The notes under the pieces are model-generated. The model saw nothing but the letters and a program-made list of their open reading frames with translations. It was not told the DNA's origin and made no database searches. From Chiloscyllium plagiosum (lineage: Eukaryota), in the NCBI RefSeq assembly GCF_004010195.1, contig NC_057760.1:4047507-4111506 (forward strand): a stretch of DNA of 64,000 nucleotides. Direction: 5' to 3'. Shown piece by piece: positions 21,951 through 62,600 of the stretch (positions are counted from its first letter, which is position 1; each line of letters begins with the position of its first letter). The translations under genes were made by a program, and so were the position numbers.

Positions 21951-23264
21951 TATGAGACTTTGATGCTCTGTGAGAGAAAAAAGAATCATAATCAGAACAT
22001 ACCAATAGCTGAGATCTTCATGATTAATCTCTACTCATTCATATAAAACATATTATTGACAATCTTGAAAATTTACACTTTGTAACTGAACTATATTGAT
22101 AACTAGCTAGAATGTTATGCAAAGATAGTTCTCAACACTAGCAATGCATGTCAATACGTAGTCAGTGTGGCTCCTCGTTTTAGAGCAGAATCTTTATTCA
22201 ACTGCTAAAGTGGATCACAAAAACATGTACATGCTCACTGTAATATTTTCAGAGTGAATGACAATTACTTTCATTTATTTTAAAGTCAACTGCTAATCAG
22301 CCACAGGATTGGTATTTCATTTTGTCAACTGTTTCACCTCTCACTAATTCTAAAAATAGTATAGCTTGTAATATCCTGAAGTGAGCTTCATGCATATACA
22401 AGCTCAGGACATATTTCATAATCCAAACTCAAACCAACTTTATCACTGTCGCTGCAAAACTCATCAGGCTTGGTCATGCACACACAATTGTCAGTGCCAG
22501 GCTGTTATCACAGTTAGCATTAGATTGATTAAAACATCAAGGGCAAAAAATTGTCTCTATATACCAATATCTTGACAATGCGCACAGTCTACTTATCTCT
22601 CAGTCAGCACAGTCTCAATCAGTATGGACTCCCACTACCTTAAATCAAGGCTCAGAGTTCCATGCATCTCATTCAACATCTTAACAAGATCTTTCTATAC
22701 TTCCATTCATGTGAGAATGTGTAAAGGCTATGAGCAGGTAGGGAAAGAGTTATGTTTTGAGTTTTGTTAAACAAGAGGTTCAGCTGAGCATGACTTAGAT
22801 CAGATAAGAACTTAGTTAGCAATGGGGTGCTGGCAGCAAGGGTAATAGGTTAACAAGGTGGAAAAGCATTCATTATTTAAAGCCATTTAACAATATTTGA
22901 AGCACAGTATGTAATGTCCGTTTAACAAAGTGAAACATATTCATTATGTAAAGCCAGTTAAGGTTAAGAAGATTCATTGTGTAACACCAGAAGGCTTGAT
23001 CTTTGCCATTGACACTCAATGATTCTAACGGTCACCCAATCAATATGTACGTTGTGTTATCTGGATGCTCATCCCTGTAAAATGGCTAGACAATTCATTT
23101 AGAAATTGCTGTTCCAGAGAAGACAATGAACTCATATCTCAGTGCACATGGGTGATTGTTCTCTCTCCTTCCAGGGCCAGAATAAAGTCAAGTAAAACCA
23201 TACTGTCTCTCTGAGCGTTTTACTTCGACTGAAGAGATAATGGGACAACAATACAAGTGTATAG

Positions 23265-26289: not shown

Positions 26290-27240
26290 GAGGAATTGCT
26301 GGCACGATACTGCCACCTCAGGTTCTCGCCCTCCTTCACCAACTCCCACTAATTGTCTTCTGAACTTGCTGTGCTCCATTGCCTCAGGTATAACCCTGAC
26401 CTTGCCATGAAAGCTGCCAACAACAGATGATTACAGTACCATCTGTGTACTGACCTCTACCTTGCTGAGTGTCAGCATTAAAACTGTCACTTTTCCTCTC
26501 TTGACTGTAAACCACCACTGAAGATGAAATCATTGTTTTCAAAACTGTGAATGACCTCATCATTGTCTGGAATCCCCTTCAAGGTCTTGGCAAATCTATG
26601 GTTTCAGCCAACCACACCAAACTTATTTCTTCCTATCTTGAATGCTTTGCTCCCTTCCTACCTACATACACAATCCTTTTGATGCTCGACAACATTTCAA
26701 CAATTATCTGGCCCTACCTGCCCATTGATGATCAAAGTCCAATCTTTCGGCACCAAGCCACAATGACACTCATATAGCTTTTCACTTCTTCCTTGAAAGG
26801 AGGCCCAAACAAACCTGATTCTCCAACACTACCACTATCCTCACCCTACATTCTGCGGAACTTGTATCACTTATTGAATGATGTTTCCTTTAACTTATGT
26901 CACTTTTCTTCAAATAATAAGTGCGACCACGAGGACCGCAGTAATGTTCATTTTTCTGTGGGGTTGTGGAACCCTCCTTGTTTCAAGGCTTATGTCCGAA
27001 ACGCAACTCTCTTACTCCTTGGATGCTGTCTGGCCTGTTGTTCTTTTCCAGGGCCACCATTTTCGATTCTGACTCTCCAGCATCTGCACTCCTCACTTTC
27101 TCCTTGCTTTAGTTCCACTCCAACAATTTTCTTCTCACTGAATTGATGACTATAACTAGTGCCATTTCCTATCTTCATCCAGAAACACCACAACTGATAA
27201 ACCGGTCCTCTAATTTCCACCCTTCTCTTAGCCTCACTTG
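26290..27240 (+). mobile_element. Highly decayed Penelope-like RT remnant with a nested pLTR fragment (26985-27103)
   Basis: Traces of AELVxxLNxFSFNxxHFLQ and FHPSL; nested ggcttatgtccgaaac...ctcactttctcc terminus. Confidence 0.55.
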
Positions 27241-29939: not shown

Positions 29940-29943
29940 ACAA

Positions 29944-31788: not shown

Positions 31789-31910
31789 CATGATGTGGAG
31801 GTGCCGGTGTTGGACTGGGGTAGACAAAGTTATAGTCCAACAGCTTTATTTGAAAGTACTAGTTTTCAGCTCTGAAAGCTAGGACTTCCAAATAAACCTG
31901 TTGGACTACA
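31789..31910. mobile_element. Miniature fold-back Penelope-like pLTR element (family of 40395-40846)
   Basis: tagtccaacagctttatttgaaagtactagttttcag / ctgaaagctaggacttccaaataaacctgttggacta inverted arms. Confidence 0.7.
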
Positions 31911-34349: not shown

Positions 34350-34689
34350 ATCCTGAGCACCCCTGCCCCCCCTCCCAAAATGAGACCCTTTGATTACCCC
34401 AGCCCAGCTTCGAAAAGGAGATTCCTTTATTCCCGATTGCCCACCACCTTCCCCGTTGTCTTGCCCCAGCCCATCCCCACTCTTATACATCTCTCAGCCC
34501 ACTTGAATTGAATTTTTTGTCACATATACCAAGGCACCCTCCCACATTACAGATGAAGAGCTAATGCCAAAAATATCAATTTTCCTGCTCCTTGGATGCT
34601 GCATGACAAGCTGTGCTTTTCCAGCGGCACACTTTTTGACTCTTATCTCTTGCACTTGCGGTCCTCACTTTCTCCAAGATCATTGTATC

Positions 34690-40167: not shown

Positions 40168-40394
40168 TGACCTAGCCTGTATTGACCCTCTGACTGTGCA
40201 GCATTCCTCAGTCTGCTCTTCTGATGGACCGCCATGTGCTCGGACACTGCACTGGATGCTCTGATGGAGAATATCTGTGAAAGCCTTTAGATCAGCCTTT
40301 GTGCGCTAACCTGCGGATGTTTACCACAATACTACCAGTGCACTGACACTGAACCCAGTCACAAAGGATAGTCAGTTTCTACATTGATGAGGAA

Positions 40395-40846
40395 GTGCAG
40401 TGTTGGACTGTGCTGCACAAAGTTAGAAACCACAAAACGGCAGGTTATCATCCAACAGGTTTATTTGGCAGTACAAGCTTTCAGAGCACTGCTCCTTTGT
40501 CAGGTAGCTAGTGGAGCAGGATCATAGGACACAATTTATAAAAGAACATAATGTCATACGACCGATGCGATATATTAAACAAACAGAGATTGCTGTTAAG
40601 TCTTAATCATTAATTAAGTCTTCATGAGTCAAAACCTACAACCCATTCTAAATGATTAAGATTTAACAGCAATCTAGGTTTGTTCAATACATTGCATCAA
40701 TTGTCTGACTCTTTGATCTTTTACTATAAATTCTGTGTCCTATGATCCTGCCCCACTAGCTACCTGACATAGGAGCAGCACTCTGAAAGCTTGTACTACT
40801 ATATAAACCTGTTGGTTGACAATCTGGTGTTCTGTGATTTGTAACT
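40395..40846. mobile_element. Fold-back Penelope-like pLTR element (~190-bp imperfect arms), with decayed hammerhead motifs in both arms
   Basis: Arms ~40421-40611 and ~40652-40846 are reverse complements; cctgaca(a/t)aggagcag..ctctgaaagctt on each strand. Confidence 0.75.
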
Positions 40847-41272: not shown

Positions 41273-42037
41273 GTGAGGAATTGACATGTAAACAAAGTTG
41301 ACAGTAATGTTTCACAGATTAGTGCAGGCACTGAGTCTTGTTCAGCAAACTGATTGGAAACAGTCTGCAAGATAAGTGCAAACAGGATGATTATTTCAAA
41401 CCAGGCTCCTCAGTGGCCCCTGTAGACTGATGTAGATCCAAATTAGTTTGGGTTAGAGCTAGTTCAACTGGGATATTAGTTCAGAAAGCCAAATCCATCT
41501 TGGCATCAGAAGTTGCATTCAGTATTGAGGACTGAAATGTGTGGATTCATTGCATCTGACCTGACCCCACTGGAATGCAGAATTTCTCAGTCGCATGGGA
41601 TCTGAAAATGGCCATACCCCTTATGAACAGATTTTCAGAAATCCCCTCCGACTGTATCTTTTGTTCTGGGCTGGCAGGTGTTGCACATGTTACACGACCT
41701 CATGCTCGTTTCCCAGTCTGTACGTTCCTGAATGTGTTCCCAGCAGCCTGATAAGCCAAATGGGACGGCTTTCCGTCCATGAGATTGGACATCACTGGGA
41801 GATCCTGAGGAAATTTGAGAATATCTGTGGAGGAGAATCAAAGATTCTAGGAACTTGGGGAGAAGAGAAGAAATCTTTTCTCATAGGATTGAGAGTCATC
41901 AAAGCTCTGAGTCAAAAGGTATTAAATATTTTTAAGGCAGATGTAAATAGATTCTTGTCAAGCAAAAAGTGAAAAGTTATGGATTAGTGGGAATGTGGAG
42001 CAATCATATTAGCTTGGATCTGTGTGAATAATCAACT

Positions 42038-42198
42038 CGGAGAAAGTGAGAACTGCAGATGCTGGAGATCAGAGCTGAAAAATGTGTTGCTGGAAAAGCG
42101 CAGCAGGTCAGGAAGGGCTTATGCCCGAAACGTCGATTCTCCTACTCCTTGGATGCTGCCTGACCTGCGCTTTTCCAGCAACACATTTTTCAGCTCTG
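42038..42198. mobile_element. Miniature fold-back Penelope-like pLTR element
   Basis: ggagaaagtgagaactgcagatgctgg terminus, inverted arms, gaagggcttatgcccgaaacgtcga; flanking direct repeat tctgtgtgaataat at 42019-42032 and 42195-42208. Confidence 0.85.
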
Positions 42199-42498
42199 TG
42201 TGAATAATGGATTGGCCTTGATGGTCTACCTCTGCTCCAAGTTCATTTTATTTCAAGGACCTTCCCTATTGGATCACTGTGACGTTTTTATATTTTGTAC
42301 AAGTTTCAGCCCAAGGCTCTGAAATTATAGTTGTAAAACCTGCTAAATCTCATCTGATGAATTACTATTTGAGTCATGTACCAAAATGTCATTAGTGCCT
42401 GGAACATTACCTTAGTGAAAGGTGGCACCTTTGAAGAGTAGGGAAGGGATAAAAATGGGACAGACTGTTGTTGTAACTGTTTACGTTTCTCTTCTCAG

Positions 42499-42690
42499 CT
42501 GGTAAACCGTGTGATGCCACGAGTTTTGGGGGTAGCTCAGTGGTTTGTATTTGCAATGCGACATACTGCGATACAATGGATCCACTGGTGTTGCCAGAGA
42601 AAGGCCATTACCTTTTGTATGAAACCACTAAGGCTGGTAAAAGGCTTGAGAGCAAAATCGGAAATATCCTAACAAACACAAAACAGGAAG
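42499..42690 (+). CDS. GBA1: GBA1 exon 3 equivalent (192 nt)
   Basis: GKPCDATSFGGSSVVCICNATYCD...YETTKAGKRLE; canonical splice sites; size matches human. Confidence 0.97.
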
Positions 42691-43549
42691 GTAATGTTTG
42701 TAGTTGCTGCTTTTCTTTGTTTGGTTTCATGGGATGGTTTGCCACCATTAATTACCTGTCCCTCATTGTCCTTGAGATGCCTTCTGGAATCTCTGCAGAG
42801 TACTTTGCTGAAAGGCCATAATCGAAAGCAATAATTAGTTGAAGTGAATCATTTCAGATATTCCTTTGTGAACAATTATTTTTGCGTCTACCTTCATTCA
42901 GTTCATAAAAATAGAGAATTGTACTGACGAGGAAAACTCCCTGCAGCCTTGAACAAAGTCAATTGCATTGTTCACTTCCAGTATTCCCTCTGTGTGTCCA
43001 GTGAGACATTCCATCATTGTTGGAACTTACTCGCCTCCTTGCTCATGTTTTCATCTCTAGTTTGAACTAAACCAGACCTCTTCTGGATAGTCATCTTATC
43101 TTTTCCCTCATAAGCTTAAATTCCATAATTATTCTTAATAATTTTTATCGATGCACAAAGAAAGCACCCTATCCGGATACATCATAACTCCGTATGGCAA
43201 CTGGTGTGCCCAACATTGCAAGAAATTACAGAACTCGGAAACAGTAAAGACAGCAGATGCTGGAAGTCAGAGTCAATAGATGTGAGGCTGGAAAAGCGCA
43301 GCAGGTCAAAGAGTTGTAAACACAGCCCAGTCCATTAAGAAAAACAGCATTCCTTCCATTGACTCTACCTTGGGAAAGCAGCCAGTTTAACCAAAGATTC
43401 CTCCCACCCTGGTTATATTCTCTTCCAGCCTCTTCCATTAGGCATCATACTTCTCCTGTTGATCTTCTCTGCACCTTCTCCATGCCTGTGATACTAGATT
43501 CTGCATTCTCTTCTATTACCCAAATGTACTTAATGAAATACATGTTATC

Positions 43550-43868
43550 ATAGAACCCTTACAGTGTGGAAAGAGGACATTTGGCCCATTGAGTCCACAC
43601 TGATTCTCCAAAGAGGATCCCACCCACACCCACCCCAAGCCTGTAACCATGCATTTCTGATAGCTAACCCACGTAGCCTGCACATCCCTGGATCTATGGG
43701 ACAATTTACCATGGCCAAAGCACCTAACCTCTGGGAGAAAACCGGACCACCCCGAGGAAACTCACGTCGACAAGGGGAGAATGTGCAAACTCCGCACACA
43801 AGCTGTATTGAACCCAGCTCCCTGGTACCGTGAGGCAGCAGGGCTAAACAGTGAGTCACCCGTGCCAT
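43550..43868 (-). mobile_element. Diverged HE1/V-SINE
   Basis: ggggagaatgtgcaaactcc, gtgaggcagcagggctaaac and tail segments. Confidence 0.75.
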
Positions 43869-44745
43869 AGATTTGTTGGGTTGGCACTCAAAACAATTTT
43901 CACTATATCTTGGTACATGTGACAATAAATCAAATTGAATTTTGGAGGTGATGGCGTATTGGTATTATCACTAGTCTATTAATCCAGAGACCCAGGCCAT
44001 GTTCTTGGATCAGTTTGAGTGCTACCATGGCAGATGGTTGAAATGAATTGGCCAGTTTTCCTTTAATCCAAAGGATTCTTTCTTTTGCTGTCAGTCTGCC
44101 ATGTGGAACCTTATTAAAAGCCTTGCTGAAGTCCAAATAGAATACATGAAAAACATTACCTCAACCCCACACCTTCAAAAATTCAACCAAGTTGGTCGTA
44201 CATGACCACCCCACCTTAACATCACCCTTCTGACTGTTCTTGATTCCCTGCCTTTCCAAATGTAGATTAGTTATGTTCCTCTGAACTGCTTCCAGCAGTT
44301 TCCCAAATGTTGATGCTAGATTAACTGGCCTGTAATTTCCTTGTTTATCCCTTGCTTCCTTTTTAAATTACAGTACCATATTGGCTGTCTTTCAGTCCTT
44401 TGGCACCTACCCCATAGTCAGAGGAATTGAAAATTATTGCTAGTGCTCTTGTTATTTTCTCCTTTTGACTCACACAACAACCTGGGATACATTTTGTGTG
44501 GCCCTGGAGATTTAATCTTTTAAGCATGCCAGAGGACTCAGAACCTCCTCTCTGACGATGCTAATTTCTTCAAATGTATCGCAGTCCTCCTCCTTGATTT
44601 TTATATCCATGTCATCCCTCTCGCTAGTGAACACTGACACAAAGTATTAGTTTAGAAATCTACCTATATTCTCTGACTGCACACACAAATTACCACTGTG
44701 GCCCTTAATGGGCTCTAGTCTTTCCCTTGTTTTCCTTTTATCTCA

Positions 44746-47700
44746 GTGTTTAGGGGAACATTGGGACCGGTTCTGGGGAAGGTGGGACTATTACAAAATG
44801 GACGGTCTACATCTGAACCAGACTGGAACCAATGTCCTTGGGGGAGTTTTTGCTACTGCTGTTGGGGAGATTTTAAACTAATGTGGCAGGGGACTGGGAA
44901 CCAGAAGAGAAAACAAGTAAGCAGCGAGGTGGAGACTGGAGACTGTAAGAATTATGAAGATAGCAGTAATAAAGGGAAGAGTAGGCAGAGAGCAGATGAG
45001 CGCAAAAAAACTGGTGGCATGGAATGCATCTACTTTAATGCAAGGAGTATAGTGTGTAAGGCAGATGAACTTAGGGCTTGGATTGGTGCCTGGGAGTATG
45101 ATGATATTGCAATCACAGAGACTTGGTTGAAGGAAGGGCATAATGATTAGCAATTAAATGTTCCAGGATACAGACGCTTCAGACAGGACAGGGAGGGAAG
45201 TGAAAGGGATGGGGGGGGGAGGTGCATTGCTGGTTAAGGACGATATCACGGCTGTGCTAAAGGAGCACACTATGGAGGTTTTGGGTAGTGAGGCATAATG
45301 GGTGGAGCTGAGAAATAAGAAGGGTGCAGTTACATTATTGGGGCTGTATTACAGGCTTCCCAACAGTGAGCGTGAGGTAGAAGAACAAATAGGCAAACAG
45401 ATTATGGAAAGATGTAGAGGCAATAGGATAATGGTGATGGGAGACTTTAATTTTCCCAACATTGACTGGGATACACTTAACGTCAGAGGTCTAGATGGGG
45501 TAGAATTTGTAAGAAGCGTCCAGGAGAGTTTTCTAGAGCAATATGTCAATAGTCCGACGAAGGAAGGAGCTATATTGGACCTGGTATTGGGGAATGAGCC
45601 AGGACAGGTGATAGAAGTTGCGGTGGGGGATTTCTTTGGGAACAGTGACCACAATTCTGTAAGTTTTAGAATACTGGTAGATAAAGAAGAGAGTGGTCCT
45701 AAGGGAAGAGTACTAAACTGGGCCAGGGCCAATTATATCAAAATTAAGCAGGAGCTGGGAAATGTGGATTGGACACAGCTATTTGAAGGGAAGTCCACAT
45801 TTGAGATGTGGGAGGCTTTCAAAGACAGTGCAGGATAGGCATGTCCTGTTGAAGGCAACGAATAGGAAGGGCAAGATTCGTGAACCGTGGATGACAGGAG
45901 AAATTGTACGACTAGCCAAGAGGAAAAGGGAAGCATACATAAGGTCTACGCAGCTAAGAACAGAATGGGCCCTGGAAGAATATCGCAAGAGTAGAATAAG
46001 TCTTAAACAAAGAATCAAGCGGGTTAAAAGGAGTCATGAAATAGCATTAGCGAGCATTTTATTCTTATATAAGAAGCAAGCAGGTAACTAGAGAAAGGAT
46101 TGGTCCACTAAAGGATAACGAAGGAAGACTGTGGGTCGAACCTGAGAGAATGGGTGAGATTCTGAATGATTACTTTGCATCAGGGTTCACTGAGGAGAGG
46201 AACATGATCAACGTTGAGATTAGAGATAGAAGTTTGATTAGTCTGGATCACGTTGACATAAGTAGGGAAGATGTGTTGGATAGGCTAGAGGTTATTAGGA
46301 TGGACAAATCCCCAGGACCGGATGAGATCTATCCCAGGTTGCTGAGGGAGGCGAGAGAGGAAATAGCTGGGACCCTGACAGATATCTTTGTGGCATCCTT
46401 AAAGACAGGTGAGGTGCCGGAGGACTGGAGGGTTGCTCATGTTGTCCCCCTGTATAAGAAGGGTAGTAGGGATATTCCGGGTAACTATAGACCAGTGAGC
46501 TGACGTTGGTGGTGGGAAAGATGCTGGAGAAGGTACTGAGGGATAGGATCTGTTTATATTTAGAAAAGAATGGGCTTATCAGTGATAGGCAACATGGGTT
46601 TTGTACAGGGGAGATTGTGCCTTACCAACTTAATAGAGTTCTTCAAGGAAGTGACCAAGTTGATAGATGAAGGAAGGGCTGTTGATGTCATATATATGGA
46701 CTTTAGTAAGGTGTTTGATAAGGTTCCCCATGGCAGACTAATGGAGAAAGTGAAGTCATATGGTGTGCAGGGTGTTCTAGCTAGGTGGATAAATAACTGT
46801 TTGAGCAACAGGAGACAGAGAGTAGTAGTTGAAGGGAATTTCTTGAAATGGAGAAAGGTGACCAGTGTGTTTCACAGGGGTCAGTGTTGGGGCTACTGTT
46901 GTTTGTGATAAACATAAATGATCTGGAAGAGGGCACTGTTGGTATGACCAGTAAGTTTGCAGATGACACAAAGATTGGTGGAGTAGCAGAAAGCATAAGG
47001 GACTGTCAGAGAATACAGGAGGATATAGATAGACTGGAGAGTTGGGTGGAAAAGTGGCAGATGGCTTTCAATCCAGACAAATGTGAGATGATGCATTTAG
47101 GCAAGATTAATTCCAGAGCGAATTATACAATGAACGGAAAAGCTATGGGAAAAGTTGATGGGCAGAGACTACTGGGAGTGTAGGTCCATTGTATCCTGAA
47201 GGTTGCTGCACAGGTGGATAGAATGGTCAAGAAGGCACATAGTATGCTTGCCTTCATTGGACGGGGTTTTGAATATAAGAGCTGGTAAGTCATGTTAAAA
47301 TTGTACAAGATATTGGTTCGGCCACATTTAGAACACTGTGTACAGTTCTGGTCCGCACATTACCAAAAGGATGTGGACGCTTTGGAGAGAGTGCAAAGAA
47401 GGTTTACAAGGATGTTGCCTGGTATGGAAGGTGCTAGCTATGGAGAGAGGTTGAGTAGGTCAGGTTTATTTTCATTAGAAAAAAGGAGATTGAGGAGGGG
47501 ACCTGATTGAGGTTTATAAAATCATGAAGGGTATAGACCGGGTGGAGAGAGACAAGCTTTTTCCCAGGGTGAAGGATTCAATAACGAGAGGTCACACTTT
47601 CAAGGTGAGAGGTGGAAAGTTCAAGGGGGATACACGCGGCTAGTACTTCACACACCGGGTGGTGGGTGTTTTGGAACATGTTGCCAGCAGAGGTGGTAGA

Positions 47701-47873
47701 GGGAGGCACAGTAGATTCATTTAAGATGTGCCCAGATAAATGCATGAGTAGGTGGGGAGCAGAGGGATACAGATGCTTTGGAATTGACCGACAGGTTTAG
47801 ACAGTACATTTGGATCGGCTCAGGCTTGGCGGGCCGAAGGGCCTGTCCCTGGGTTGTAAATTTTCTTTGTTCT
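44746..47873 (+). mobile_element. CR1 LINE, ~3.1 kb (end of ORF1, APE endonuclease, RT, 3' UTR), inactivated; nested in an older minus-strand CR1 (~44050-48270)
   Basis: CIYFNARSI, AITETWL, MGDFNFP, SDHNSV, KSPGPD, DFSKVFDKVPH, KFADDTKIGG; several frameshifts and stops. Confidence 0.94.
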
Positions 47874-49616
47874 TTGGAAAAAATGTCATGGAAAGTTCCC
47901 TTAGTTTATGTACCATTATCCTTTCATGTCCCCAGTTTGCACTCCTGATTTCCTTTTCAAGTTCCCCCTTGTATTTTCTAGACTCCTTCAAGGGCTTCTG
48001 CTGTTTTGGGCCATTAGGATCAGTCGTAAGCATACCTTTTTAATCCATATATCCCTCGATTTGTTGGTCCCACCCTTTATCTTTTATTTGAACATGTTGG
48101 CCCTGTACTTTTCCTATTTCCCTCTTGATTGCATCCCACTGCTTTGACATAGATTTTCCTGGAAGTATCTGCTCCCAAGTTTCTCTGGTCAAATCACATC
48201 TGATCTCATTAAAATAAGCCTACTCCCATTTAAAATTTTGATTTCCTGGTCTTTAAAAAATCTTCCTTTTCCCAGACAACAGAGTATTCCCTCGATTCCA
48301 TTGACGTCTTACTTCCATAATCACCTCCAGATTGCAACCCCTAAGATATCTGCACAACTCCGATGCAGGGATAGGTTAGGGAGAATTGAGTCTAGTTGGG
48401 ATGCTCTTCAGAGGATTGGTGTGGATTCAATGGGCTGAACAATTTGCTTCCATGCTGTAAGGATTCTGTGGTGCTATTAATTCTAGACTTTATACATCCA
48501 TGCTTTTCTTGGCTCTACTGTTGGTGGTCGTACTATCGGCTGCCCGGGTCCTGAGCTCTGGCATTACTTCCCTAAATCTCTGTCTGTCTGTCACCTTTTA
48601 AAATGCTTTTCAATTTATTTGTTTACTTGATTCGAGTTCACTGTAGTCAGACAACCTCAAGCAGTGACTTCTCTTCCTGTCTTTGCAGATTTACCTCCAG
48701 AATTCCTTGGGGATTGAGCTTTTGGTTCCTCATATTTTTTACGCATGTGCTGATTCGTGGAATTAAAACACCGCATCAAGTTCCACTGACATGTTGATGA
48801 TGATGACATGTTCCACTGCCCCTCACCCACTGCTGTTGACATCTTCTCTGTATCAGATTGGTCAGGCTTCGTGTTTGACATGAGACGTTTGATGAACTCA
48901 ACCTCCTTCAGTGAATCATAGAGGAGCTTGAAGCCATAGTCCTTTGCCCCAGCCATAAGCTCTGGCCTTGCAACATCAACATCCCCTGTTTTCTTGGTTG
49001 CTGCGTCAGGCTGAAACTGACAGGGTGCAGCATCTGTAAACCGAGGTGAATCAGAATCTGATTCTGAAGACTACATGTATATCTTCACTCCCTTAGTCCA
49101 TTGCTGTCTGACCTTCTTTCTCTGCTTCACTGAGCTGCTGCTAAAATCCTCATTCCTGCAGGTCTCCTGTTCTTATATTCCCTTTAGTTGCCCTTCTGTA
49201 ATGTCCTTCCTCAGAAAACTGATCATTCAGAAAATTGCTAATATTTTTAGTCAACCTGTTCAGGGATGTTATAGTGCATGTCAGGAACAGGTGGGGCTTG
49301 AGCCAGGGCCTTCTGGCTCAGAGACAGATATACTACCACTGTACCTTCTTTATGTATTCTATCTCATTCAGTGCTGTCCAAGTTCATTCACACTGGCTTC
49401 CTATCCCCAATGCATTGATTTAAATTTGTCATTGTTTTCAAATTCCTTTCAGGGTTGTGTCTCTGTGACCAACTCCAATTTCAGATACCTTCACATGTCC
49501 TTCAGTCTAATTCTAGCCTCTTAGAAGTCAGTGGTAACAAATTGAATACTACTGAGCTTTCCTTGAAATCCAACTCCTTATTTCCAGTGCCCTAAATGAC
49601 AGCCTTGTTCCCCTAG

Positions 49617-49763
49617 GTTTGCAGCTGACTTTTGATGTGAGGAAGAAATACCAGCAGATGAAAGGTTTTGGAGGTGCGATCACTGATGCTGCAGCTATCA
49701 ACATTCTCTCACTTTCTGCTGGGTCCCAGGAAAATCTTCTCCGATCCTACTTTTCCGAAGAAG
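49617..49763 (+). CDS. GBA1: GBA1 exon 4 equivalent (147 nt)
   Basis: [52 protein letters not shown] boundaries. Confidence 0.97.
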
Positions 49764-49915
49764 GTTTGTGTGGATCAAAATTAAAGCATGCTGCAAAAGA
49801 CCAGGAATTATTAACAGGCCCCTGTGTGGTTATATCTTCCTTGTCATAGCGTCCACAGAAAAGCTCAGCTTTGGAAACACTGACACATTCATCTTGCCAA
49901 TTTTTCCGAATGCAG

Positions 49916-50049
49916 GAATTGAGTACAATATTATCCGTGTACCGATGGCGAGCTGTGATTTTTCAACACGTGTGTACACTTATGATGACCATTCTGGAGA
50001 CCTGGATCTGCAACACTTCAGTTTGACAGAGGAAGACACCAAAATGAAG
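49916..50049 (+). CDS. GBA1: GBA1 exon 5 equivalent (134 nt)
   Basis: [24 protein letters not shown]...EEDTKMK. Confidence 0.97.
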
Positions 50050-50350
50050 GTTAAATGCTTGCCCTTCTTTGCACGTTTGATAGGAACAATTGGACATTTG
50101 GGAGGGAAGGGATAGTGTCAGCCTTAGCCTTCCTGCGACAGCAGCCTTTCCCTGATTTGGCTTCTTCCGTCTCTCCCACATTGCCTCTCCTTCCTCTGTT
50201 TTCATGTCCTTTCTACCACTGCCCCCTCACATTTCCCCCCCTTGCCCTTCCCTCAGTGTCTTCCTTCAGTGCCTCCTCCTGTTCTCCCCTTCACGCCCAT
50301 CCCCTGGTGTTCCTCATCTCCTGAGCTCACTCAGCTCCCCTTTATCCTAT

Positions 50351-50560
50351 GGAGGAGAAAGTGAGGTCTGCAGATGCTGGAGATCAAAGTTGAAACTTTA
50401 TTGCTGGAACAGCACAGCAGGTCAGGCAGCATCCAGGGAACAGGCGATTCGACGTTTTGGGCACAGGCCCTTCTTCAGGAAGGGCCTGTGCCCGAAACGT
50501 CGAATCTCCTGTTCCCTGGATGCTGCCTGACCTGCTGTGCTGTTCCAGCAATAAAGTTTC
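50351..50560. mobile_element. Miniature fold-back Penelope-like pLTR element
   Basis: 82-bp arms 50392-50473 and 50479-50560; flanking direct repeat tcccctttatcctat at 50336-50350 and 50559-50573. Confidence 0.88.
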
Positions 50561-50713
50561 CCCTTTATCCTATCCCTTCTCTTCTTTCCATTGCCATTTG
50601 TCTAGCCATTTTCCTGCATTTTTATAAGCCCAAGAATTGACCTTAGCATAACTCCACTGGTGGAATGTGAACACTCCCATTCAAATCTGATCTTTTTTTT
50701 CTTCTCCAACTAG

Positions 50714-50886
50714 ATCCCAATTATTCAAGCGGCCAAAGCAGTCTCCAAACGTCCCATGTCCTTGTTTGCGAGTCCATGGACTGCTCCACCCTGGATGAAA
50801 ACAAGCAATTCAACAATTGGGAAGGGGACTTTGAAGGGGAAGCCTGGAGGAAAATACTACAAGTCATGGGCAAAGTATTTCATCAG
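50714..50886 (+). CDS. GBA1: GBA1 exon 6 equivalent (173 nt)
   Basis: IPIIQAAKAVSKRPMSLFASPWTAPPWMKTSNSTIGKGTLKGKPGGKYYKSWAKYFI; read manually (not in the ORF track). Confidence 0.96.
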
Positions 50887-51706
50887 GTGAAACAGACACT
50901 TTTATCTCCCTGCCCAAGGTGCACTGGGACAAATCGGTTTGAATCTCTTTCAGGGCCTTTTGGGAGAAGGCGATGCTGTGCAAATCAGTTTGAGAACTGG
51001 CAGCTCATTGGTAACTGTGATTTGGTTTGTGTGGTTTTGTTCTTTAAGATGAAAATCTGTTGAATGGAAAAGGTCAAGTGCAGATGAAAAGTAAACACAT
51101 TTAAAAATTTTTTTTTGCTTTTTTTCACCTGTCTGGTCTCTAACCTGAGCATTTCTTGTGTCAAGTTGTAAGTCTCTTTGTACACAAATGAACAGTCAGA
51201 AATATCGATCCATTTCTCAGAGGGTGCACACATATAAAGTGACTGATTTCTGAGTATAACACTGTATTCTCTTCCTGTGTCCTGTCACTCCTTGAACGTT
51301 TCCAAAGGCCATATTTTACCTGGAAGGGATCAAGTCCTTTAACCAATTTTACACATAAATCCCTACATATTCCCTCCCTGCCACATGCTGGGAACACACA
51401 GCGTGTGATTGATGGTTCACTTCAGAGCTTTAAACTCAGCTGCTGGTTTTGAATTAGGTTCTCAACAGAAAAGGCAACAATTTTTGAGTTCCTAATCAAA
51501 AGTATATTCTTGTGGAAGAATAAAATTTAATTGAATTTGGTATTGACAATTTCCCATCAATCTTGTTTCACAAACTCTATTCTCCCCTCTTCCCCCATTC
51601 GCCCCATCCCGCCCCCCTTGCTTTCTCTCGGTTTTTTTTCCTGCTGCTCTTTCTTTTGCTCATAGTTTACTTCTCCATCTCTCTTTTCATCCCTCTCTCT
51701 TTCCAG

Positions 51707-51944
51707 GTTTCTGGATGAATATGCAAAACACAACCTCACATTTTGGGCATTGACAGCACAGAATGAGCCCACCACAGGAATGCTGACTGATTATAGCTTC
51801 CAGTGCATGGGCTTTACAGCAGAGATGCAGCGAGATTTCATTCTGCTTGACCTTGGGCCTGCATTACAGAGCAGTGCTCACAAGGACGTGCAGCTTATGA
51901 TCCTTGATGATCAAAGACTCTTGTTGCCCTATTGGGCAAACGTG
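51707..51944 (+). CDS. GBA1: GBA1 exon 7 equivalent (238 nt), acid/base Glu (E235) at 51765-51767
   Basis: [24 protein letters not shown]...[14 protein letters not shown]. Confidence 0.97.
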
Positions 51945-52496
51945 GTGAGTGTGATTTGAGATGAACTCTCAAAAACAACAGCTACATTTGAATGGGTATG
52001 AAGAGCAGCTTCTTGTTGGTAACCTGTTAAGCTATTCAGTATAAAGAATGCTTCTTTGCTGTATACATCTGCAAATACTGAACTTTGCCGGCAACACAGA
52101 TTCCAGTCAAATGAAACAGTGTTGAAATGACCATTGCAGAGCACCAGTTCAGGAGTGTTGGTATGGATGGTCTTGAAATGTGTGCAAGGGACTATGGTAA
52201 TGGGAGGGATGGGCAGGGCCAAGGCCAAGAGGTGGCTGCTCAGGAGAATGGACAAGACCAGGACACCCAGCTGAGAGTCTTGTGGGGAAGGAGATTGATT
52301 GCATGCATGGGTATGCACACCAAGCATTTAGTGCACATTTTGTCCTGATCTGAACCCCAACAATGAATGAAAAGCAAGTGCAGTCATTTGGAAACCTTCA
52401 GAGTCTGAAGGTGTTTTATGCAGTCTGTCCAACACTGAATGTCACAAAGATTCTGCAACACTGACATTAAAACATCTTTTCTCCCTATCCCACTAG

Positions 52497-52721
52497 GTCT
52501 TGAGTGATGTGCGTGTTGCTCAGTATGTACATGGCGTTGCAGTGCACTGGTACCTCGATATGCTGACTCCAGCTGACAAAACTCTGGGCAGCACACAGGA
52601 GCTTTTCCCAGAATATTACCTGTTTTCCACAGAGGCCTGCACTGGATACTTGCCGTGGGAACACACAGTGCAATTGGGAAGTTGGGAGCGAGGTGCCATG
52701 TACAGCTATGACATGATTCAG
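52497..52721 (+). CDS. GBA1: GBA1 exon 8 equivalent (225 nt), nucleophile Glu (E340) at 52632-52634
   Basis: VLSDVRVAQYVHGVAVHWYLD...LFSTEACTG...LGSWERG...DMIQ. Confidence 0.97.
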
Positions 52722-53292
52722 GTCAGTGGGTGAGAGGGAGAATGGGAAATGAACTGAAATGAGTTGAGCAAGAATGAGCCATGAGTCCTCCTGTGTGGAG
52801 CCCCCAGGTGGTGATGGTTAGACTCTGCAATGTGAACTACAGTAAGTTTGGTACAGTTTTGGATTTGTGATGGGTATGTTATAGAGTCATAGAGATTGTC
52901 TGAAGGGGAATAAACCTAAGTATTACCATTTAGCCCCTCTCCAGTGTCTTGTAAATAGTGTCCTCGGCAGAAGCTGTTCAGTTAACCTCTACGCCATCAG
53001 ACAACAGAGATCAAAACTTCACTGGCTTTTCTGTGGTCATCAGCCACAGCTGCAAAGCATGAACATGGAGATAGAAAACCCAGTGAAAGTGGTACTGGTG
53101 AAAACTAAGGAGAGAAGCAGACCGGAGAGCTTTCAGCAAGGTTGGGGGGGGGGGGGGAGGGGGGAGGGGTAAGGATCACATTTGAGAAAATGTGATTAAA
53201 TTGAATAGTGAAGATATGAGACTAGAGAAAGTTGGCCATCGGGGCAATGATCAGAGTACGACAGAAAAGGATGGGGCAGAGGCATAGTCAAT

Positions 53293-53622
53293 GGGGAGGT
53301 GATGGCCTAGTGATATTATCACTGGACTGTTAATCCAGATACCCAGATAATGTTCTAGGGACCTGCGTTCAAATCCCACCACGGCAGATGGTACAGTTTG
53401 AATTCAATAAATATCTTGAATTAAGAATCTAATGATAACCGTGAATTCTTTGCCAATTGTCAGAAAAACCCATCTGGTTCACTCACTTCCTTTAAGGAAG
53501 GAAACTGCCATCCTGACCTAGTCTGGCCTCCATGTGACTCTAGACCCACAGCAATGTGATTGGCTCTTAACTGCCCTCTGGGCAATAAATACTTCATAGC
53601 CATCACATGAATGAATTAAAAA
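53293..53622 (+). mobile_element. tRNA-derived SINE with L2-like tail
   Basis: A box tggcctagtg, B box gttcaaatccc, body aaaacccatctggttcact...aaggaaggaaactgcc, tail catgaatgaattaaaaaa; related fragments at 15885, 27270 and 43944. Confidence 0.8.
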
Positions 53623-54370
53623 ACAGCATCATCAGATGATGCTGTTGATTACAACATTGACAACTCAGGGCTCTGTATTTGAATGGACTCTAGAATCTGG
53701 AATAAGACTGATGAATTGAGAACAGTAAATCGAAAAAAAACAAGTGTGATATAGTCACAATTGCAGGAACATCCAATGTCAGAATTGTTAAAGTATAAGG
53801 AGGCCATTTGGCCCATTGTATTTGTGGTGCCTCTCTAAGCAAGCATCTTGTAGTGCCATTCACTTGCTTGCTCCCTTTAGGCTCCGGAATTTGTTCATTT
53901 CTGATTCTCTTTTGAAAGTGCCTGTTGGCTCCTCCAGACACTGGGGTGGTGCATTCCAGACCTTAATGGATCCTAATGTGAATCCAGTCTGTCAATGAGA
54001 GAGAATCAAGGCACCTTTCTTTCTCAATGGGAGTTTTGGCCAGTGAAGAACCCCACAATAAACTTTCCGGCCAGTTCGATAAACATCTGTGAATCTAACC
54101 ATTTTGTGCCACTCAGCCAGTTTTATATCCATGTTGCTCTGGTCCCTTTTATTCAATGAGCTCTAATTTTGCTCACAAGTTCATTTGCAGCATTGCATCA
54201 AATGTCTTATATATACCAGATCCACAGCACTGCCTTGATTGACCCTCTCTGTTATCTCTTCAATCAATTCCAGAAAATTAGTTAAATGTGAGTTTCCTTT
54301 AGGAATCTGATTGAAGGTAGAGAGAAGATATGGTGTACATGGATTTTAGCAAGGCGTTTGATAAGATTTC

Positions 54371-54579
54371 TTCGAGGAGAAAGTGAGGTCTGCAGATGCT
54401 GGAGATCAAAGTTGAAACTTTATTGCTGGAACAGCACAGCAGGTTAGGCAGCATCCAGGGAACAGGAGATTCGACGTTTCGGGCACGTTCCTGAAGAAGG
54501 GCCTGTGCCCGAAACGTCGAATCTCCTGTTCCCTGGATGCTGCCTGACCTGCTGTGCTGTTCCAGCAATAAAGTTTCAA
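54371..54579. mobile_element. Miniature fold-back Penelope-like pLTR element
   Basis: 75-bp arms 54412-54486 and 54505-54579; flanking direct repeat gtttgataagatttc at 54356-54370 and 54580-54594. Confidence 0.9.
54487..54522 (+). ncRNA. Minimal type I hammerhead ribozyme motif (Penelope-type), predicted cleavage after C54518
   Basis: GUUC-CUGAAGA-A-GGGC-CUGU-GCCC-GAAA-C-GUC-GAAU: intact core, 4-bp helix II, helix I GUUC/GAAU, palindromic ACGU in place of helix III. Confidence 0.72.
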
Positions 54580-56290
54580 GTTTGATAAGATTTCCCATTT
54601 TAGGCTCATTCAGGAGTAAGGAGGCAAGGGATACAGGGAAATCTGGCTGTCTGGATACTGAATTGGCTGGCCCATTGAAAACAGAGGGTGGTAGTAGATG
54701 GAAAGTATTCAGCCTGGAGCTCGGTGACCAGTGGTGTTCCATAGGGATCTGTTCTGGGGCCTCTGCTCTTTGTGATTTTTTTTTATATAAACGACTTGGA
54801 TGAGAAAGTGCAAGGGTAGGTTAGTAAGTTTGCCGATGACAAGACGCTTGGTGGAGTTGTGGATAGTGTGGAGGACTGTTGTCAATTGCAAAGGACGTTG
54901 ACAGGATGCAGAGCTGGACTGAGAAATAGCAGATGGTATTCAACCTGGAAGAGTGGAAGATCAAATCTGAATGCAGATTACAGGGTTAAAGACAGGATTC
55001 TTGGCAGTGTGGAGGAACAGAGGGATCTTGGGGTCCACGTCCATAGATCCCTCAAAGTTGCCACCCAAGTTGATAGGATTGTAAAAATGCAAATGTCATG
55101 TTGGCTTTCATCAGCAGGGGATTGAGTTTGAGCCATGAGGTTATGCCGCAGCTCTATAAAGCCCTGGTCAGACCACCCTTGGAATATTGTGTTCGGTTCT
55201 AGTCTCCTCGTTATAGGAATGATGTGGAAGTTTTAGAGAGGGATCAGAGGAGATTGACCAGGATGCTGCCTGGACTTGAGGGCATGTCTTATGAAGAAAG
55301 GTTGAGGGAACTAGAGCTTTTTTCATTGGAGTGAAGAAGGGTGAGAGGCAACTTGATAGAGGTGTACAAGATGATGAGGGGCATAGGTAGAGCGAATAGT
55401 CCAAGACTTGTTTCCAGGGCTGAAATGGCAATCACAAGAGGCCATAATTTTAAGGTGATTAGAGGAAGGTTTAGGGGAGATGTTAGAGGTAGGTGCTTTG
55501 CACAGATAGGACTCTTGAATAGGCACATGGATGATAATAAAATGAAGGGTATGTAGGTTAGGCTGATCTTCGATTTTGATAAAAGGTCAGCACAACATGG
55601 TTTCAGTATAAAGGATACAAATGACATCTCAGAAATAATTGTGAATCCTCTGTGATTTAAACAACTAAAAATGTCAGGGAAAGGATACTGAGATGGTCAT
55701 TTCAACTAAAAGCTAACCAACAATAGACTTCACCCAAAAAAGAAGTGACTGATGAGATTGAGATTAACTTTTCCAGAATCTAGGGAATTTTGCAAGGTCC
55801 ATTTAGATTGGAAATTAGTGGATATGATTCCTCTATTCAAGAAACTGGAGAGTTAGAAAGCAAGAAATAGCAGGCCAGATAGCTTAACATCTGACATAAG
55901 AAAAATTCTAGAATCTATTGTTAGAGATACAGCAGGACATTTTGAAAGTCTCAAAGCAATCAGGGAGAGTAATTTTATGAAGGAGAAATCACATTTGACT
56001 TATTTATTGGAGTTCATTTGAGTTCATCGCAGACATTGGTCGATAATGGGAGCCTGTACTTGGATTTGCAGAGTAAATGTTACTGTAACAAGAGCTGGAG
56101 GTCTAGGATGTAACATATTAGCATAGGTAAAGGACTGCTTTGCTGAGCAATGAAGGTTTACAATATATCATTATTATTTGGGAGTTGGGGTCTAAAGCAG
56201 AGGTAAAAATGCTGCCAACTGGGACTAGATTAATTTAGGGTATCTGGTAGGACTGGGTGAGTAGGACTGAGGGGTATGTTTCCATGCTGT

Positions 56291-58394: not shown

Positions 58395-59915
58395 AGTCCT
58401 CTGCTTCTCCCACAGATCTCTGCTCCTCAGATGCTGCCTGAACTGCTGTGCTTTTCCAGCACCACTCTAATGCAGAATCTGGTTTCCAGCATCTGCAGTT
58501 ATTGTTTTTGCCACGGATCTCTTCACCCACCTCCAACACATTCCCTCCACTTGGGCTCTCTTTCTGGCCTTTAACCTGCACTCAGTCTGTTCATTAAGAA
58601 GATTCAACATGATGTTGGTCAGCTTAATCTCTCTGTCCACCCTGCTCCTCCCCCCCACCCCCCTGGTATATCTCTTGTATATCAATGACATCATTGCTGC
58701 TTCCCTGTTTTGTCTGGAATTGGAAAAGTTTATCCATTTTCACTTGCAGTTTCCACCCTGCTTTCATCTTCACCTAGACCATCTCTGATTTGCTTCTTTT
58801 CCATCACCGATATCTCTGTTTTCATTTCTGGGGAAAAGCTGGCTGCCAATGTTCACAATGTAACCACCGACTCCCACTGTACTTTGTACATCCTCACAAT
58901 ATGCTTCCTGTGAAGACCCTATTTCAAGCTCCTAGTTTCTCCATCTCTGTTGGATCTGTTCCGATGAGGCCAGTTTCTCCAAGGGAGCCTCCAAAAGCTC
59001 CACCTTTTTCCTTGAACAAGGATTCCCCGTCAGCATAGTTGATCAGGCTCTCAGTCATGTCTGACTAATCTCCCATACTTCAGCCGTCCCACAACAGCGA
59101 TCGTGTCTCTCTGATCCTTACGTATCACCCCACCAGTCTTCACAGCTAAAGGATCATTAACTGCCATATCTGCCACTTCCAGTGGGATGCCACCACCAGA
59201 CTAATATCCCCCTTCCCTCCCTTGTCAGTCTTCCACAAGGACTGTTGCCTCTGGAACACCTTGGTCCACTCCTCTTACACTCCCAACATCTTCCCATACT
59301 GTCTATGTAACTTTTAAGATGCAATATCTACCTGCTTACTTCCTCTCTACTCATTATCCAAGGTCCAGATGAAGCAGTGATTTACCTGCACTTCACTCAA
59401 TCTAGTCTACTATATTCACTGCTCACAATGTGGTCTGCTCTACACTGGGAAAAGAAACGCAGGCTGGGTGACTGTTTTCCACAGAATGTGATCCTGAGCT
59501 TGCTGATGCCTGTCACCTCAACACACCACTGTATTCCCTGTCCAAATTCTCTGTTATGGTCTTGCTGCAGTGTTCCAGAGCGGGAGTGCAAGCTCATGTT
59601 CCGCTTGAGAACCCTGCAATCTCCATACTGAGTTCAATAATTTTGGGGCTTGAGTACCTTCTCCTATGTCCTTACTCATTCCCCACACCAGGCCTTGTCA
59701 TCACATGGGCTGCTGTCACAAACAACCCATTCTCAGTCATGAATGGTCCCCATTACCAGAGATTGATTCTTCCAGGTTGACCCCTCTCTGTTTCTTTGTC
59801 TGTCCAACTTATTTTATTTCTTTGTCTCTGGGCTCCATCTTCACCTATCATTTACTCTTCCCCTTTTCAGATAAACCTATTGGACTATAACTTGGTTTTG
59901 TGTGATTTTTGACCC
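58395..59915 (+). mobile_element. Decayed Penelope-like (Neptune-type) element: pLTR tail, RT and GIY-YIG remnants
   Basis: Traces of YINDII, FHP, DISVFISG, TDSH, FLHLCWICSDE and FTCTSLNLVYYIHCSQCGLLYTG; pLTR gatgctgcctgaactgctgtgcttttccagc at 58430. Confidence 0.78.
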
Positions 59916-61299: not shown

Positions 61300-61660
61300 A
61301 AAGTGGAGAGTCAAAAAGTGTGGTGCTGGAAAAGCACAGCAGGTTAGGCAGCATCTGAGTCAACATTTTGGGCATAAGCCCTTCATTGGGACTGCGGGGA
61401 GGCCTAAGGAGTCTGAAAGATAATAGGAGGGAGTTAGGGTTGCCGTTGGGGGTGGGGGGGAGGAAGTGGGGGGTGGATAGGTGGGAAGGAAGATGGACAT
61501 GAACAAGTTCAAGAGAGCAGTGCCAAGTTGGAGGGTTGGATCTGGGATAAGGTGGGAGGAGGGGAGATGAGGAAATTGGTGAAATCGATGTTGATCCCTT
61601 GTGGTTGCAGGGTCCCATGGTGGAAGATGAGGCATCCTTTCTCCAGGTGTTGGTTGGTTG
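61300..61660 (-). mobile_element. Penelope-like 3' end (GIY-YIG tail, pyrimidine-rich UTR, pLTR)
   Basis: Minus LEKGCLIFH..TLQPQGINIDFTNF, then aatgaagggcttatgcccaaaatgttga (decayed hammerhead) and the pLTR tail. Confidence 0.75.
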
Positions 61661-61899: not shown

Positions 61900-62600
61900 A
61901 ATACATTCCATTTGCAATCATCAATCCAAATTGATGGTGAGGAGGAAGGTTACAGGGCAATATAAACATGTTGGACCCCTGGGCAGATTAGAGGCTGATA
62001 GAATTTAACCCGATTAATTGTGAGCACTTTGAAGAAGTAACAAGACATGAGAGTATTCCATGAATAGCAGGACACTAGGAAGTTAAGAGGAACAGAGAGT
62101 TCTTGGGGCTTATGTCCATATATCCCTGAAGGTGGCAAGATGGGTTAATATTAACTAGGAGAAAGTGAGGACTGCAGATGCTGGAGATCAGAGCTGAAAA
62201 ATGTGTTGCTGGAAAAGCGCAGCAGGTCAGGCAGCATCCAAGGAGCAGGAGAATCGACGTTTCGGGCACGCTTGCCTTTATCAGGAGTGGCATAGCTTGT
62301 GGAAACAAGGAAGTTATCTTGGAGCTGTACCTAACTTTGGTGAGGCCACAGCTGGAGTACTGTGTGCTGCTCTGGTCATCATGCTGTAGAAAGGATTTGA
62401 TTGTACTGGAGGGGGATGCGGAGGTGATTCTCCAGAATGTTCCCTGAGATGGAGCCTTTCAACATTGGTGAGAGGGCGCGTAAGTTTGAGTTGTTTTCTT
62501 TGGAGCAGAGAAGGCGAACAGGGGACCTGATTGAGTGGATAAGATTGATGGGCTGGGCATGGTTGATCGAGAGCAGTCGTTCCCCAGAGAGAGAGAGATA
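61900..62600 (+). mobile_element. Old CR1 remnant containing a single-arm Penelope-like pLTR (62158-62269)
   Basis: LELYLTLVRPQLEYCV; inserted ggagaaagtgaggactgcagatgctgg...gacgtttcgggca. Confidence 0.8.

What the first reader, a model, noticed from the sequence alone, without database searches (positions are those of the whole stretch)
42019..54594. Family of miniature fold-back, hammerhead-bearing Penelope-derived elements with 14-15 bp target duplications
Seen: 160-210 bp non-coding palindromic insertions at 42038-42198, 50351-50560, 54371-54579 and 29944-30121, plus single arms at 26985, 34552, 43232 and 62158. Each has one complete terminus (ggagaaagtgagg..tgcagatgctgg) and an opposite arm about 30-40 nt shorter. 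Exact flanking direct repeats are tctgtgtgaataat (14), tcccctttatcctat (15) and gtttgataagatttc (15). In each palindromic copy the inversion point lies in or beside the hammerhead core (cTGAAGAaGGGCnnnnGCCCGAAACGTC). Two subfamilies are distinguishable (CUGU loop with gttgaaactttattg; UCAU/UUAU loop with gctgaaaaatgtg). Known: Penelope-like pLTRs carry minimal type I hammerheads. Inference: these MITE-looking units are retrotransposition products in which cDNA synthesis stops or switches at the ribozyme fold, forming a non-autonomous ribozyme-hairpin family that may be poorly described in sharks.
Basis: partly seen in the sequence, partly recalled or inferred. Interest (0 to 1): 0.78.

Follow-up and report, generated by a model that had tools for sequence, protein, structure and literature searches.

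The report
Head-to-head Penelope retroelement stubs
These 160-210-base hairpins in a shark-type genome are real insertions made of two head-to-head end pieces of a Penelope-like jumping gene, a layout already described, and were likely made when each side of the cut DNA primed its own short copy.

Summary
Three hairpins (42033-42194, 50351-50558, 54371-54579) have exact 14/15/15-bp target duplications; 1500 random position pairs gave at most 10. The fourth (29942-30121) has none.

Each hairpin is two 3' ends of a Penelope-like element (PLE) joined head-to-head, with a 41-43-nt tail on one arm only. This is the published PLE layout (PMC3846280, PMC8557442). A copy at 61307-61660 links this terminus to the C-terminus of a shark RT/GIY-YIG protein. 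Three other PLE families in the window share the layout, three of their four inserts inverting far upstream of the hammerhead.

It is not a self-copying hairpin family: all four junctions differ, and public contigs give 107 joint forms. Only one hairpin keeps an intact ribozyme core, predicted to be buried in duplex.

Inner ends do cluster at the hammerhead (9 of 14 arms) and avoid its cut site (0 of 14). A second hot spot lies about 17 nt past the cut.

Likely mechanism: both strands of a staggered cut prime separate cDNAs on uncut RNA. The scan noted this before on other shark DNA (57 notes).

The parts
42033..42194 (.). Hairpin 1 (UUAU-loop subfamily): antisense arm with tail 42033-42113, sense tail-less arm from 42113; TSD 42019-42032 / 42195-42208
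50351..50558 (.). Hairpin 2 (CUGU-loop subfamily): antisense tail arm 50351-50481, sense arm 50479-50558, 3 shared letters at the turn; TSD 50336-50350 / 50559-50573
   Evidence: flank contigs in run X4
54371..54579 (.). Hairpin 3 (CUGU-loop subfamily): antisense tail arm 54371-54486, sense arm 54487-54579; TSD 54356-54370 / 54580-54594; inserted in a LINE RT remnant
54491..54518 (+). Only intact minimal type I hammerhead core among the four hairpins (C3 at 54491, predicted cut after 54518); predicted to be paired with the opposite arm
   Evidence: stem II; whole-insert fold; descriptor from PMC4209133
29942..30121 (.). Hairpin 4: tail-less antisense arm 29942-29996, sense tail arm 29997-30121; no TSD; abuts another repeat (SINE-like, label recalled) at 29941
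62152..62269 (-). Solo tail-bearing arm, inner end about +14, in a LINE remnant, no TSD
26987..27104 (+). Solo decayed arm with tail, inner end about +10
34530..34675 (+). Solo decayed arm with tail, inner end at or somewhat upstream of the core (uncertain)
43232..43308 (-). Solo decayed arm with tail, inner end about +53
58416..58500 (+).
61307..61660 (-). Longer family copy: ORF C-terminus (about 61652-61530), 3' UTR, decayed hammerhead (about 61389), tail-less arm; links the terminus to an RT/GIY-YIG ORF
9581..10447 (.). Control, sister PLE family: same head-to-head layout, 14-bp TSD (9567-9580 / 10448-10461), 38-nt one-sided tail, ORF C-terminus at 9850-9951, inversion about 140 nt upstream of the hammerhead-like motif on one arm and about 500 nt on the other
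23261..25949 (.). Control, another PLE family: inverted pair with RT remnants, inversion inside the RT region, possible 12-bp TSD with one mismatch
40390..40846 (.). Control, a further hammerhead-like-motif family (PLE by layout only): inverted pair, one arm about 30 nt longer, inversion more than 100 nt upstream of the motif; a short copy at 31797-31908 inverts inside the motif; no TSD found

Best explanation
The hairpins are the shortest class of insertion of an endonuclease-bearing Penelope-like retroelement: two end pieces joined head-to-head between 14-15-bp target duplications, likely made one insertion at a time when both strands of a staggered cut each primed a short cDNA on uncut element RNA. 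Inferred steps: the RT/GIY-YIG protein nicks the two strands 14-15 bp apart; one 3' end primes at the outer internal start (arm with tail), the other at an inner start about 35-43 nt further in, helped by 2-6 matching letters (arm without tail); both cDNAs stop early, most often at the front of the hammerhead, probably because the RNA begins there; their free ends are joined by end-joining. The stubs are dead-on-arrival products, not a separate mobile unit.
For: Shown: both outer ends of every hairpin are the element's 3' end and the inner ends are ragged. TSDs of 14, 15, 15. Two discrete termini genome-wide: loose ends at 50352-50353 in 768 contigs of run X4 and at 50352-50354 in 905 of X11, and a second cluster at 50401-50402 (254 and 216) whose loose consensus stays element-like for about 11-16 letters (24 of 353 rows shown). 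Link to an RT/GIY-YIG ORF: 26 of 42 residues identical to the C-terminus of whale-shark protein P0011, which has GIY-YIG above Pfam's cut-off and RVT_1 below it. Matching letters between target and element at the tail-less end in 4 of 4 inserts with exact TSDs: 4, 2, 6 after one mismatch, and 5 of the first 6 in the sister family. In 42033 and 54371 each arm holds sequence the other lacks. 0 of 14 inner ends at the cut site. From the literature: the Anolis PLE protein nicks and extends both strands from two internal starts that bound the 30-40-bp tail, uses uncut RNA and is predicted to be a dimer (PMC11167929); inverted 5'-truncated copy, one-sided tail and TSD are standard (PMC3846280, PMC8557442).
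Against: No full-length copy of this family was found, so the ORF link rests on one decayed copy and a two-step protein search. 2 of 4 hairpins (29942, 50351) also fit a snap-back, and both arms of 29942 share two changes not seen in the 62157 copy, which fits one template copied twice or later arm-to-arm repair. PMC11167929 reports initiation without homology to the cut DNA, whereas the inner junctions here show microhomology. No RNA 5' end was mapped. In D. virilis the start site is 46 bp before a 75-bp intron (PMC2377424) that ends at the hammerhead (PMC4209133), so start and ribozyme need not abut. Sister families in the window do not stop at the hammerhead. The n of 14 is small, positions were read by eye and the -5..+20 window was chosen afterwards.
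Confidence: 0.62

Rival explanations
1. Same PLE origin, but the hairpin forms by self-priming before integration (a strand folds back and copies itself, as proposed on an antisense template in PMC3846280) and the endonuclease then trims the two ends unevenly, leaving the tail on one side.
For: Published proposal for head-to-head PLE palindromes; PMC8557442 ascribes the tail to endonuclease resolution. Arms are 95-98% complementary in the two young copies; 3 shared letters at the turn in 50351; shared variants in both arms of 29942.
Against: Does not predict target-to-element microhomology at the tail-less end (4 of 4). The tail ends were later matched to RT start sites in vitro (PMC11167929). 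Snap-back of a target-primed cDNA is excluded in 42033, 54371 and the 9581 and 23261 controls; only a hairpin made before integration survives.
Confidence: 0.22
2. One reading: reverse transcriptase stalls or falls off at the folded (or protein-bound) hammerhead, which sets where the arms end.
For: 9 of 14 inner ends within -5..+20; three ends at +14, +15 and +19 lie on the side of stem II that RT meets first; 5 of 15 shown joints restart at the core front.
Against: Five of the nine ends lie at -4..+6, after RT has passed stem II. The motif folds no better than shuffles (z -0.05 to 0.92). 10 of 15 shown joints lie at +40..+50. Sister families pass their hammerhead-like motif by 100-1500 nt. 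This rival concerns only the stop position and can combine with the best explanation.
Confidence: 0.25
3. A non-autonomous ribozyme-hairpin element is transcribed and re-inserted as a unit by the PLE protein.
For: High copy number (23,750 contigs laid in X4); some junctions recur, up to summed depth 333 in 3 contigs against 9-10 for the unique flanks in X4; pLTRs can act in cis on non-coding cargo (PMC3846280).
Against: 4 of 4 junctions differ in the window; 107 joint forms, none dominant among the 15 shown; 3 of 4 hairpins lack a whole core and the fourth is predicted to be buried in an 82-bp duplex; the same layout occurs at 0.1-2.7 kb with ORF remnants.
Confidence: 0.08
4. A MITE of a DNA transposon.
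For: Short, non-coding, palindromic, with TSDs.
Against: Ends are not terminal inverted repeats (one arm 41-43 nt longer), TSD length varies (14, 15), the centre varies, solo arms are commoner than hairpins (6 against 4), and the terminus is linked to an RT/GIY-YIG ORF end.
Confidence: 0.02

Closest known systems
Insertion unit of endonuclease-bearing Penelope-like elements: pLTR, adjacent inverted 5'-truncated pLTR, one-sided tail, TSD (Pen2a_Av of Adineta vaga, PMC3846280; overview PMC8557442)
   Same: Head-to-head inverted ends, tail on one arm only, variable TSD, hammerhead in the pLTR; solo pLTRs and opposite-strand hammerhead pairs 100-700 bp apart are also reported (PMC3846280, PMC4209133).
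   Different: Here both arms are cut down to 45-130 nt with no ORF; TSDs are 14-15 bp against 8-10 in the Adineta examples; the tail is 35-43 nt against 31; inner ends cluster at the hammerhead.
Neptune/Nematis-type PLE ORF (whale-shark protein P0011)
   Same: [quoted passage not shown]
   Different: No RT tree was built and no full-length element was seen; clade assignment rests on the linker motif of the relative.
Poseidon of Anolis carolinensis (PAc, PMC11167929)
   Same: Two internal RT starts bounding a 30-40-nt tail about 100 nt past the hammerhead; uncut RNA is the substrate; both strands are extended.
   Different: Other clade; that paper does not explain inverted pairs or TSD length and reports no homology at priming.
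Non-LTR retrozymes (bioRxiv 10.64898/2026.07.22.740005)
   Same: Non-coding, PLE-pLTR-derived, type I hammerhead.
   Different: Retrozymes are head-to-tail tandem units each with a whole hammerhead; these are head-to-head pairs with mostly broken cores.

Membership tests
EN+ Penelope-like element insertion | Terminus belongs to an element with RT and C-terminal GIY-YIG | tested here: met
   61307-61660 joins arm, decayed hammerhead and ORF end; 26/42 identical to P0011 C-terminus; P0011 GIY-YIG 23.2 bits (cut-off 22.6), RVT_1 22.7 bits (cut-off 29.6). One decayed copy only.
EN+ Penelope-like element insertion | Minimal type I hammerhead in the pLTR (CUGANGA, extra base, G10.1-C11.1, GAAA, palindromic 15.2-16.2, short stem I) | tested here: met
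   All present at 54487-54521 (descriptor PMC4209133). Rfam gave no hammerhead hit; cleavage not assayed.
EN+ Penelope-like element insertion | Inverted 5'-truncated copy joined head-to-head | tested here: met
   4 of 4 hairpins
EN+ Penelope-like element insertion | 30-40-bp tail on one end only | tested here: met
   41, 43, 41 nt from the TSD edge, 35-41 net of microhomology; two end clusters in public contigs
EN+ Penelope-like element insertion | Variable-length TSD | tested here: met
   14, 15, 15 in 3 of 4 hairpins, none in 6 solo arms
Neptune/Nematis clade | CX2-5CxxC linker between RT and EN | tested here: inconclusive
   Present in relative P0011; that part of the ORF is absent from the window
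Neptune/Nematis clade | RT phylogeny | not tested
   No RT of this family in the window; no tree built
MITE (DNA transposon) | Terminal inverted repeats at both ends | tested here: not met
   One arm 41-43 nt longer
MITE (DNA transposon) | Fixed TSD length and uniform copy structure | tested here: not met
   14 and 15 bp; four different centres; 107 joint forms
Non-LTR retrozyme | Head-to-tail tandem units, each with a whole hammerhead | tested here: not met
   Head-to-head pairs; 1 of 4 with a whole core
Non-LTR retrozyme | Circular RNA from self-cleavage | not testable with these tools
   No suitable RNA run; 0 of 14 copies begin at the cut site
Named Dfam/Repbase family | Match to a deposited consensus | not testable with these tools
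   Neither library is available

The most novel reading that the evidence does not exclude
The stubs are natural snapshots of the unresolved PLE integration reaction: a dimeric RT/GIY-YIG enzyme cuts 14-15 bp apart and primes both target strands at two starts held about 41 nt apart on the RNA leader, the inner one by microhomology, and the cDNAs run off the RNA 5' end just in front of an uncut hammerhead. One mechanism would then explain inverted pLTR, one-sided tail and TSD. All three inserts with TSDs are compatible with a spacing of exactly 41 nt (n = 3).
Probability: 0.4. Interest if true: 0.6.

Novelty: new member of a known kind. Interest (0 to 1): 0.3.

Why it matters
As an element it is ordinary: a shark-lineage PLE family in a published layout. 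Its use is as data. How PLEs form inverted ends and the tail is stated to be open (PMC8557442, PMC11167929), and hundreds to many thousands of short, young inserts with clean TSDs allow two-sided priming, self-priming and RNA run-off to be told apart by counting junctions. Such stubs look like MITEs or miRNA hairpins to pipelines (miRNA models below cut-off) and are predicted to form long duplex RNA in introns.

Tried and rejected
No whole genome is held, so no genome-wide table of copies. Pattern scans found nothing in metagenome, viral or prokaryote contigs. Rfam: no hammerhead family at E <= 1 for the window or E <= 10 for 54440-54620, only hairpin-shaped miRNA models below cut-off. Single arms fold no better than shuffles. 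Direct word-indexed search with the ORF-end peptide found nothing; ESM Atlas no usable hit; 4 of the 8 HMMER hits were Ig/PKD repeat proteins and were dropped as chance. The arm's open frame found only two predicted isoforms ending in the repeat, so an ORF start inside the arm was not shown. Empty-site test failed for want of cover: runs X5, X10 and X11 had next to no contigs on the flanks of 50351 at 93% likeness. No RNA holder listed; no pile of read ends in RNA run X21, a poly(A) single-cell library that cannot map such ends. Ribozyme cleavage as the source of 5' ends rejected (0 of 14). Snap-back of one target-primed cDNA rejected for 42033 and 54371. Supplement 2 of PMC11167929 gave only figure labels; its genomic end profiles and the bioRxiv supplements were not seen and may bear on novelty.
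Full report
Observation. Three hairpins have exact flanking repeats of 14, 15 and 15 bp, whereas 1500 random position pairs searched with the same slack gave at most 10. The 54371 copy interrupts a LINE reverse-transcriptase remnant (CR1-type, label recalled; a paralogue scores as RVT_1), and two paralogues in the window carry the target motif once, so that repeat is a real duplication. The inserts are 42033-42194, 50351-50558 and 54371-54579. The fourth hairpin, 29942-30121, and the six solo arms have no TSD. In run X4, a second sample of the same organism label, unique contigs cover both flanks of the 50351 copy and reach 23-24 letters into it; that is under the tool's 31-letter rule for bridging, so it is supportive only. 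The first hairpin lies just upstream of, and the next two between or after, exons of a glucosylceramidase gene on the + strand. Protein hits name Chiloscyllium and Rhincodon, so the host is shark-like; I did not identify it.

Anatomy. Read on the hammerhead strand and numbered from C3, the family runs: core (+1 to +28, predicted cut after +28), about 60 nt, an inner terminus at about +85 to +90, then a tail to about +128 to +131. Each hairpin has the two 3' ends outward and the ragged 5' ends joined in the middle. One arm has the tail, the other lacks 41, 43 and 41 nt counted from the TSD edge. Both termini show genome-wide: in contigs laid on one arm, loose ends sit at 50352-50353 in 768 contigs of X4 and at 50352-50354 in 905 of X11, with a second cluster at 50401-50402 (254 and 216) (24 of 353 rows shown). 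The position of the second cluster is partly set by subfamily divergence; its loose consensus stays element-like for about 11-16 letters, which puts the real end near 50386-50391.

Link to a Penelope-like ORF. The copy at 61307-61660 (minus strand) has a tail-less arm, a decayed hammerhead, about 140 nt of 3' UTR and the end of an ORF. That peptide found four short relatives among eight hits (the other four were Ig/PKD repeat proteins and were dropped). [quoted passage not shown] The window peptide is 26 of 42 identical to its C-terminus. The linker is the mark of Neptune and Nematis (PMC8557442, passages). No full-length element of the family was seen.

Not a self-copying hairpin. The four junctions differ: inner ends +53/+6, -3/+6, +15/-4 and +2/+19. 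Contigs laid on the whole 50351 hairpin gave 107 joint forms; the deepest of the 15 shown reach 333 (3 contigs, X4) and 328 (2 contigs, X11) against 9-10 for the unique flanks in X4. Depth is no copy number, but no junction dominates among those shown. Only 54371 keeps a whole core, and the insert is predicted to fold into an 82-bp duplex that pairs its 3' half. Three other families in the window have the same layout: 9581-10447 (14-bp TSD, 38-nt tail, ORF end 53% identical to P0011, inversion 140 and 500 nt upstream of the hammerhead-like motif), 23261-25949 (inversion inside RT) and 40390-40846 with a short copy at 31797-31908 (inversion over 100 nt upstream, and inside the motif). So inversion does not need the ribozyme.

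The pile-up at the hammerhead is real for this family. 9 of 14 inner ends fall within -5..+20 and none within +24..+34 (p about 0.001 for a 110-nt span, but positions were read by eye, three old copies are uncertain and the window was chosen afterwards). In one search, 5 of 15 shown joints restart at the core front with 2-8 extra letters where listed, 10 lie at +40..+50, and none at the cut; joints far upstream cannot be seen with this reference. The template was therefore uncut RNA, as found in vitro (PMC11167929). Five of the nine ends lie at -4..+6, past stem II, and the motif folds no better than shuffles, which favours run-off at the RNA's 5' end over stalling, though ends at +14, +15 and +19 fit a stall. 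A splice site at the ribozyme's edge, as in D. virilis (PMC4209133, PMC2377424), is a third possibility. None was tested directly.

Mechanism. A staggered cut 14-15 bp wide leaves two 3' overhangs. If each primes a cDNA, one at the outer and one at the inner start, and the free ends are joined, the product is what is seen. In 42033 and 54371 each arm holds sequence the other lacks, which excludes snap-back of one target-primed cDNA; 29942 and 50351 fit either route. The target matches the element's next letters at the tail-less end in 4 of 4 inserts with exact TSDs (4; 2; 6 after a mismatch; 5 of 6). The Anolis protein nicks and extends both strands from two starts that bound the tail and is predicted to be a dimer (PMC11167929), but that paper reports no homology at priming. 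The published alternative is self-priming on an antisense template (PMC3846280), which survives if the hairpin forms before integration and is trimmed. I put PLE insertion product at about 0.95, two-sided priming at about 0.62 and run-off as the cause of the pile-up at about 0.55.

What is known. PMC3846280 (passages and Discussion) describes an inverted pLTR, a 31-bp one-sided tail and 8-10-bp TSDs. PMC8557442 (passages) and PMC8969392 (passages) give it as the standard layout. PMC4209133 (parts 1-2 of 4) defines the minimal hammerhead and notes opposite-strand pairs and many solo motifs. PMC11167929 was read in parts 1-2 of 4, the retrozyme preprint in parts 1-3 of 5, PMC2377424 and PMC5625713 as passages. 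Searches for a description of this family in sharks, for twin priming in PLEs and for inverted or solo pLTRs returned none that describes it, judged from listings; subscription journals, Dfam and Repbase were not searched. The scan's own index holds 57 notes with these words in at least 13 genomes and many in this genome. My two-cDNA reading was noted before I saw them; the run-off reading had occurred to me from the papers but was not in my notes, and several notes state it. They are not independent evidence.

Verdict. Real, correctly assigned to Penelope-like elements, but a known insertion layout at its shortest, not a new non-autonomous ribozyme family. The value lies in the junction statistics as a test of how PLEs integrate.

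Noticed in passing
window 50351-50478, run X21 against X4: 9 of the 12 letter changes that are under 1% in DNA contigs and over tenfold commoner in RNA reads are A>G or T>C (19 of 40 shown rows are of these types). A weak hint of A-to-I editing of this family; DNA and RNA are from different samples. PMC5625713 names Penelope as heavily edited in lizard.
   Followed up: partly
P0001, P0002: Two predicted FUBP3-like isoforms of Chiloscyllium plagiosum end in a translated copy of this arm: exonisation or an annotation artefact.
   Followed up: no
window 50351-50386 (joints): Contigs in X4 and X11 go back 36 letters from 50386 to 50351, i.e. tandem duplication of the tail alone at other loci.
   Followed up: no
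window 50427-50440 joined to 50513-50523: A second inversion hot spot where both arms end near +45, about 17 nt past the hammerhead cut site, recurring in both organism labels.
   Followed up: partly
runs X4, X11, X15: Contigs at least 99% alike to the CUGU-loop subfamily number 2782 in X4 (organism A), 151 in X11 (organism B) and 1090 in X15 (organism C): a lineage-specific expansion is likely.
   Followed up: no
window 9581-10447, 23261-25949, 40390-40846, 31797-31908, 14020-14690: At least three further PLE-type families, four of these five inserts in the same inverted, one-sided-tail layout; the first has a 14-bp TSD inside a LINE remnant.
   Followed up: partly
window 42477-42700 and 49890-50065 (+): Exons of a glucosylceramidase (GBA1-like) gene.
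   Followed up: partly
window 33381-34349: 969-base assembly gap flanked by C-rich tandem-like sequence, 180 bases from the 34530 solo arm.
   Followed up: no
window 39075-38960 and 12371-12276: Further solo arms of the 9581 family.
   Followed up: no
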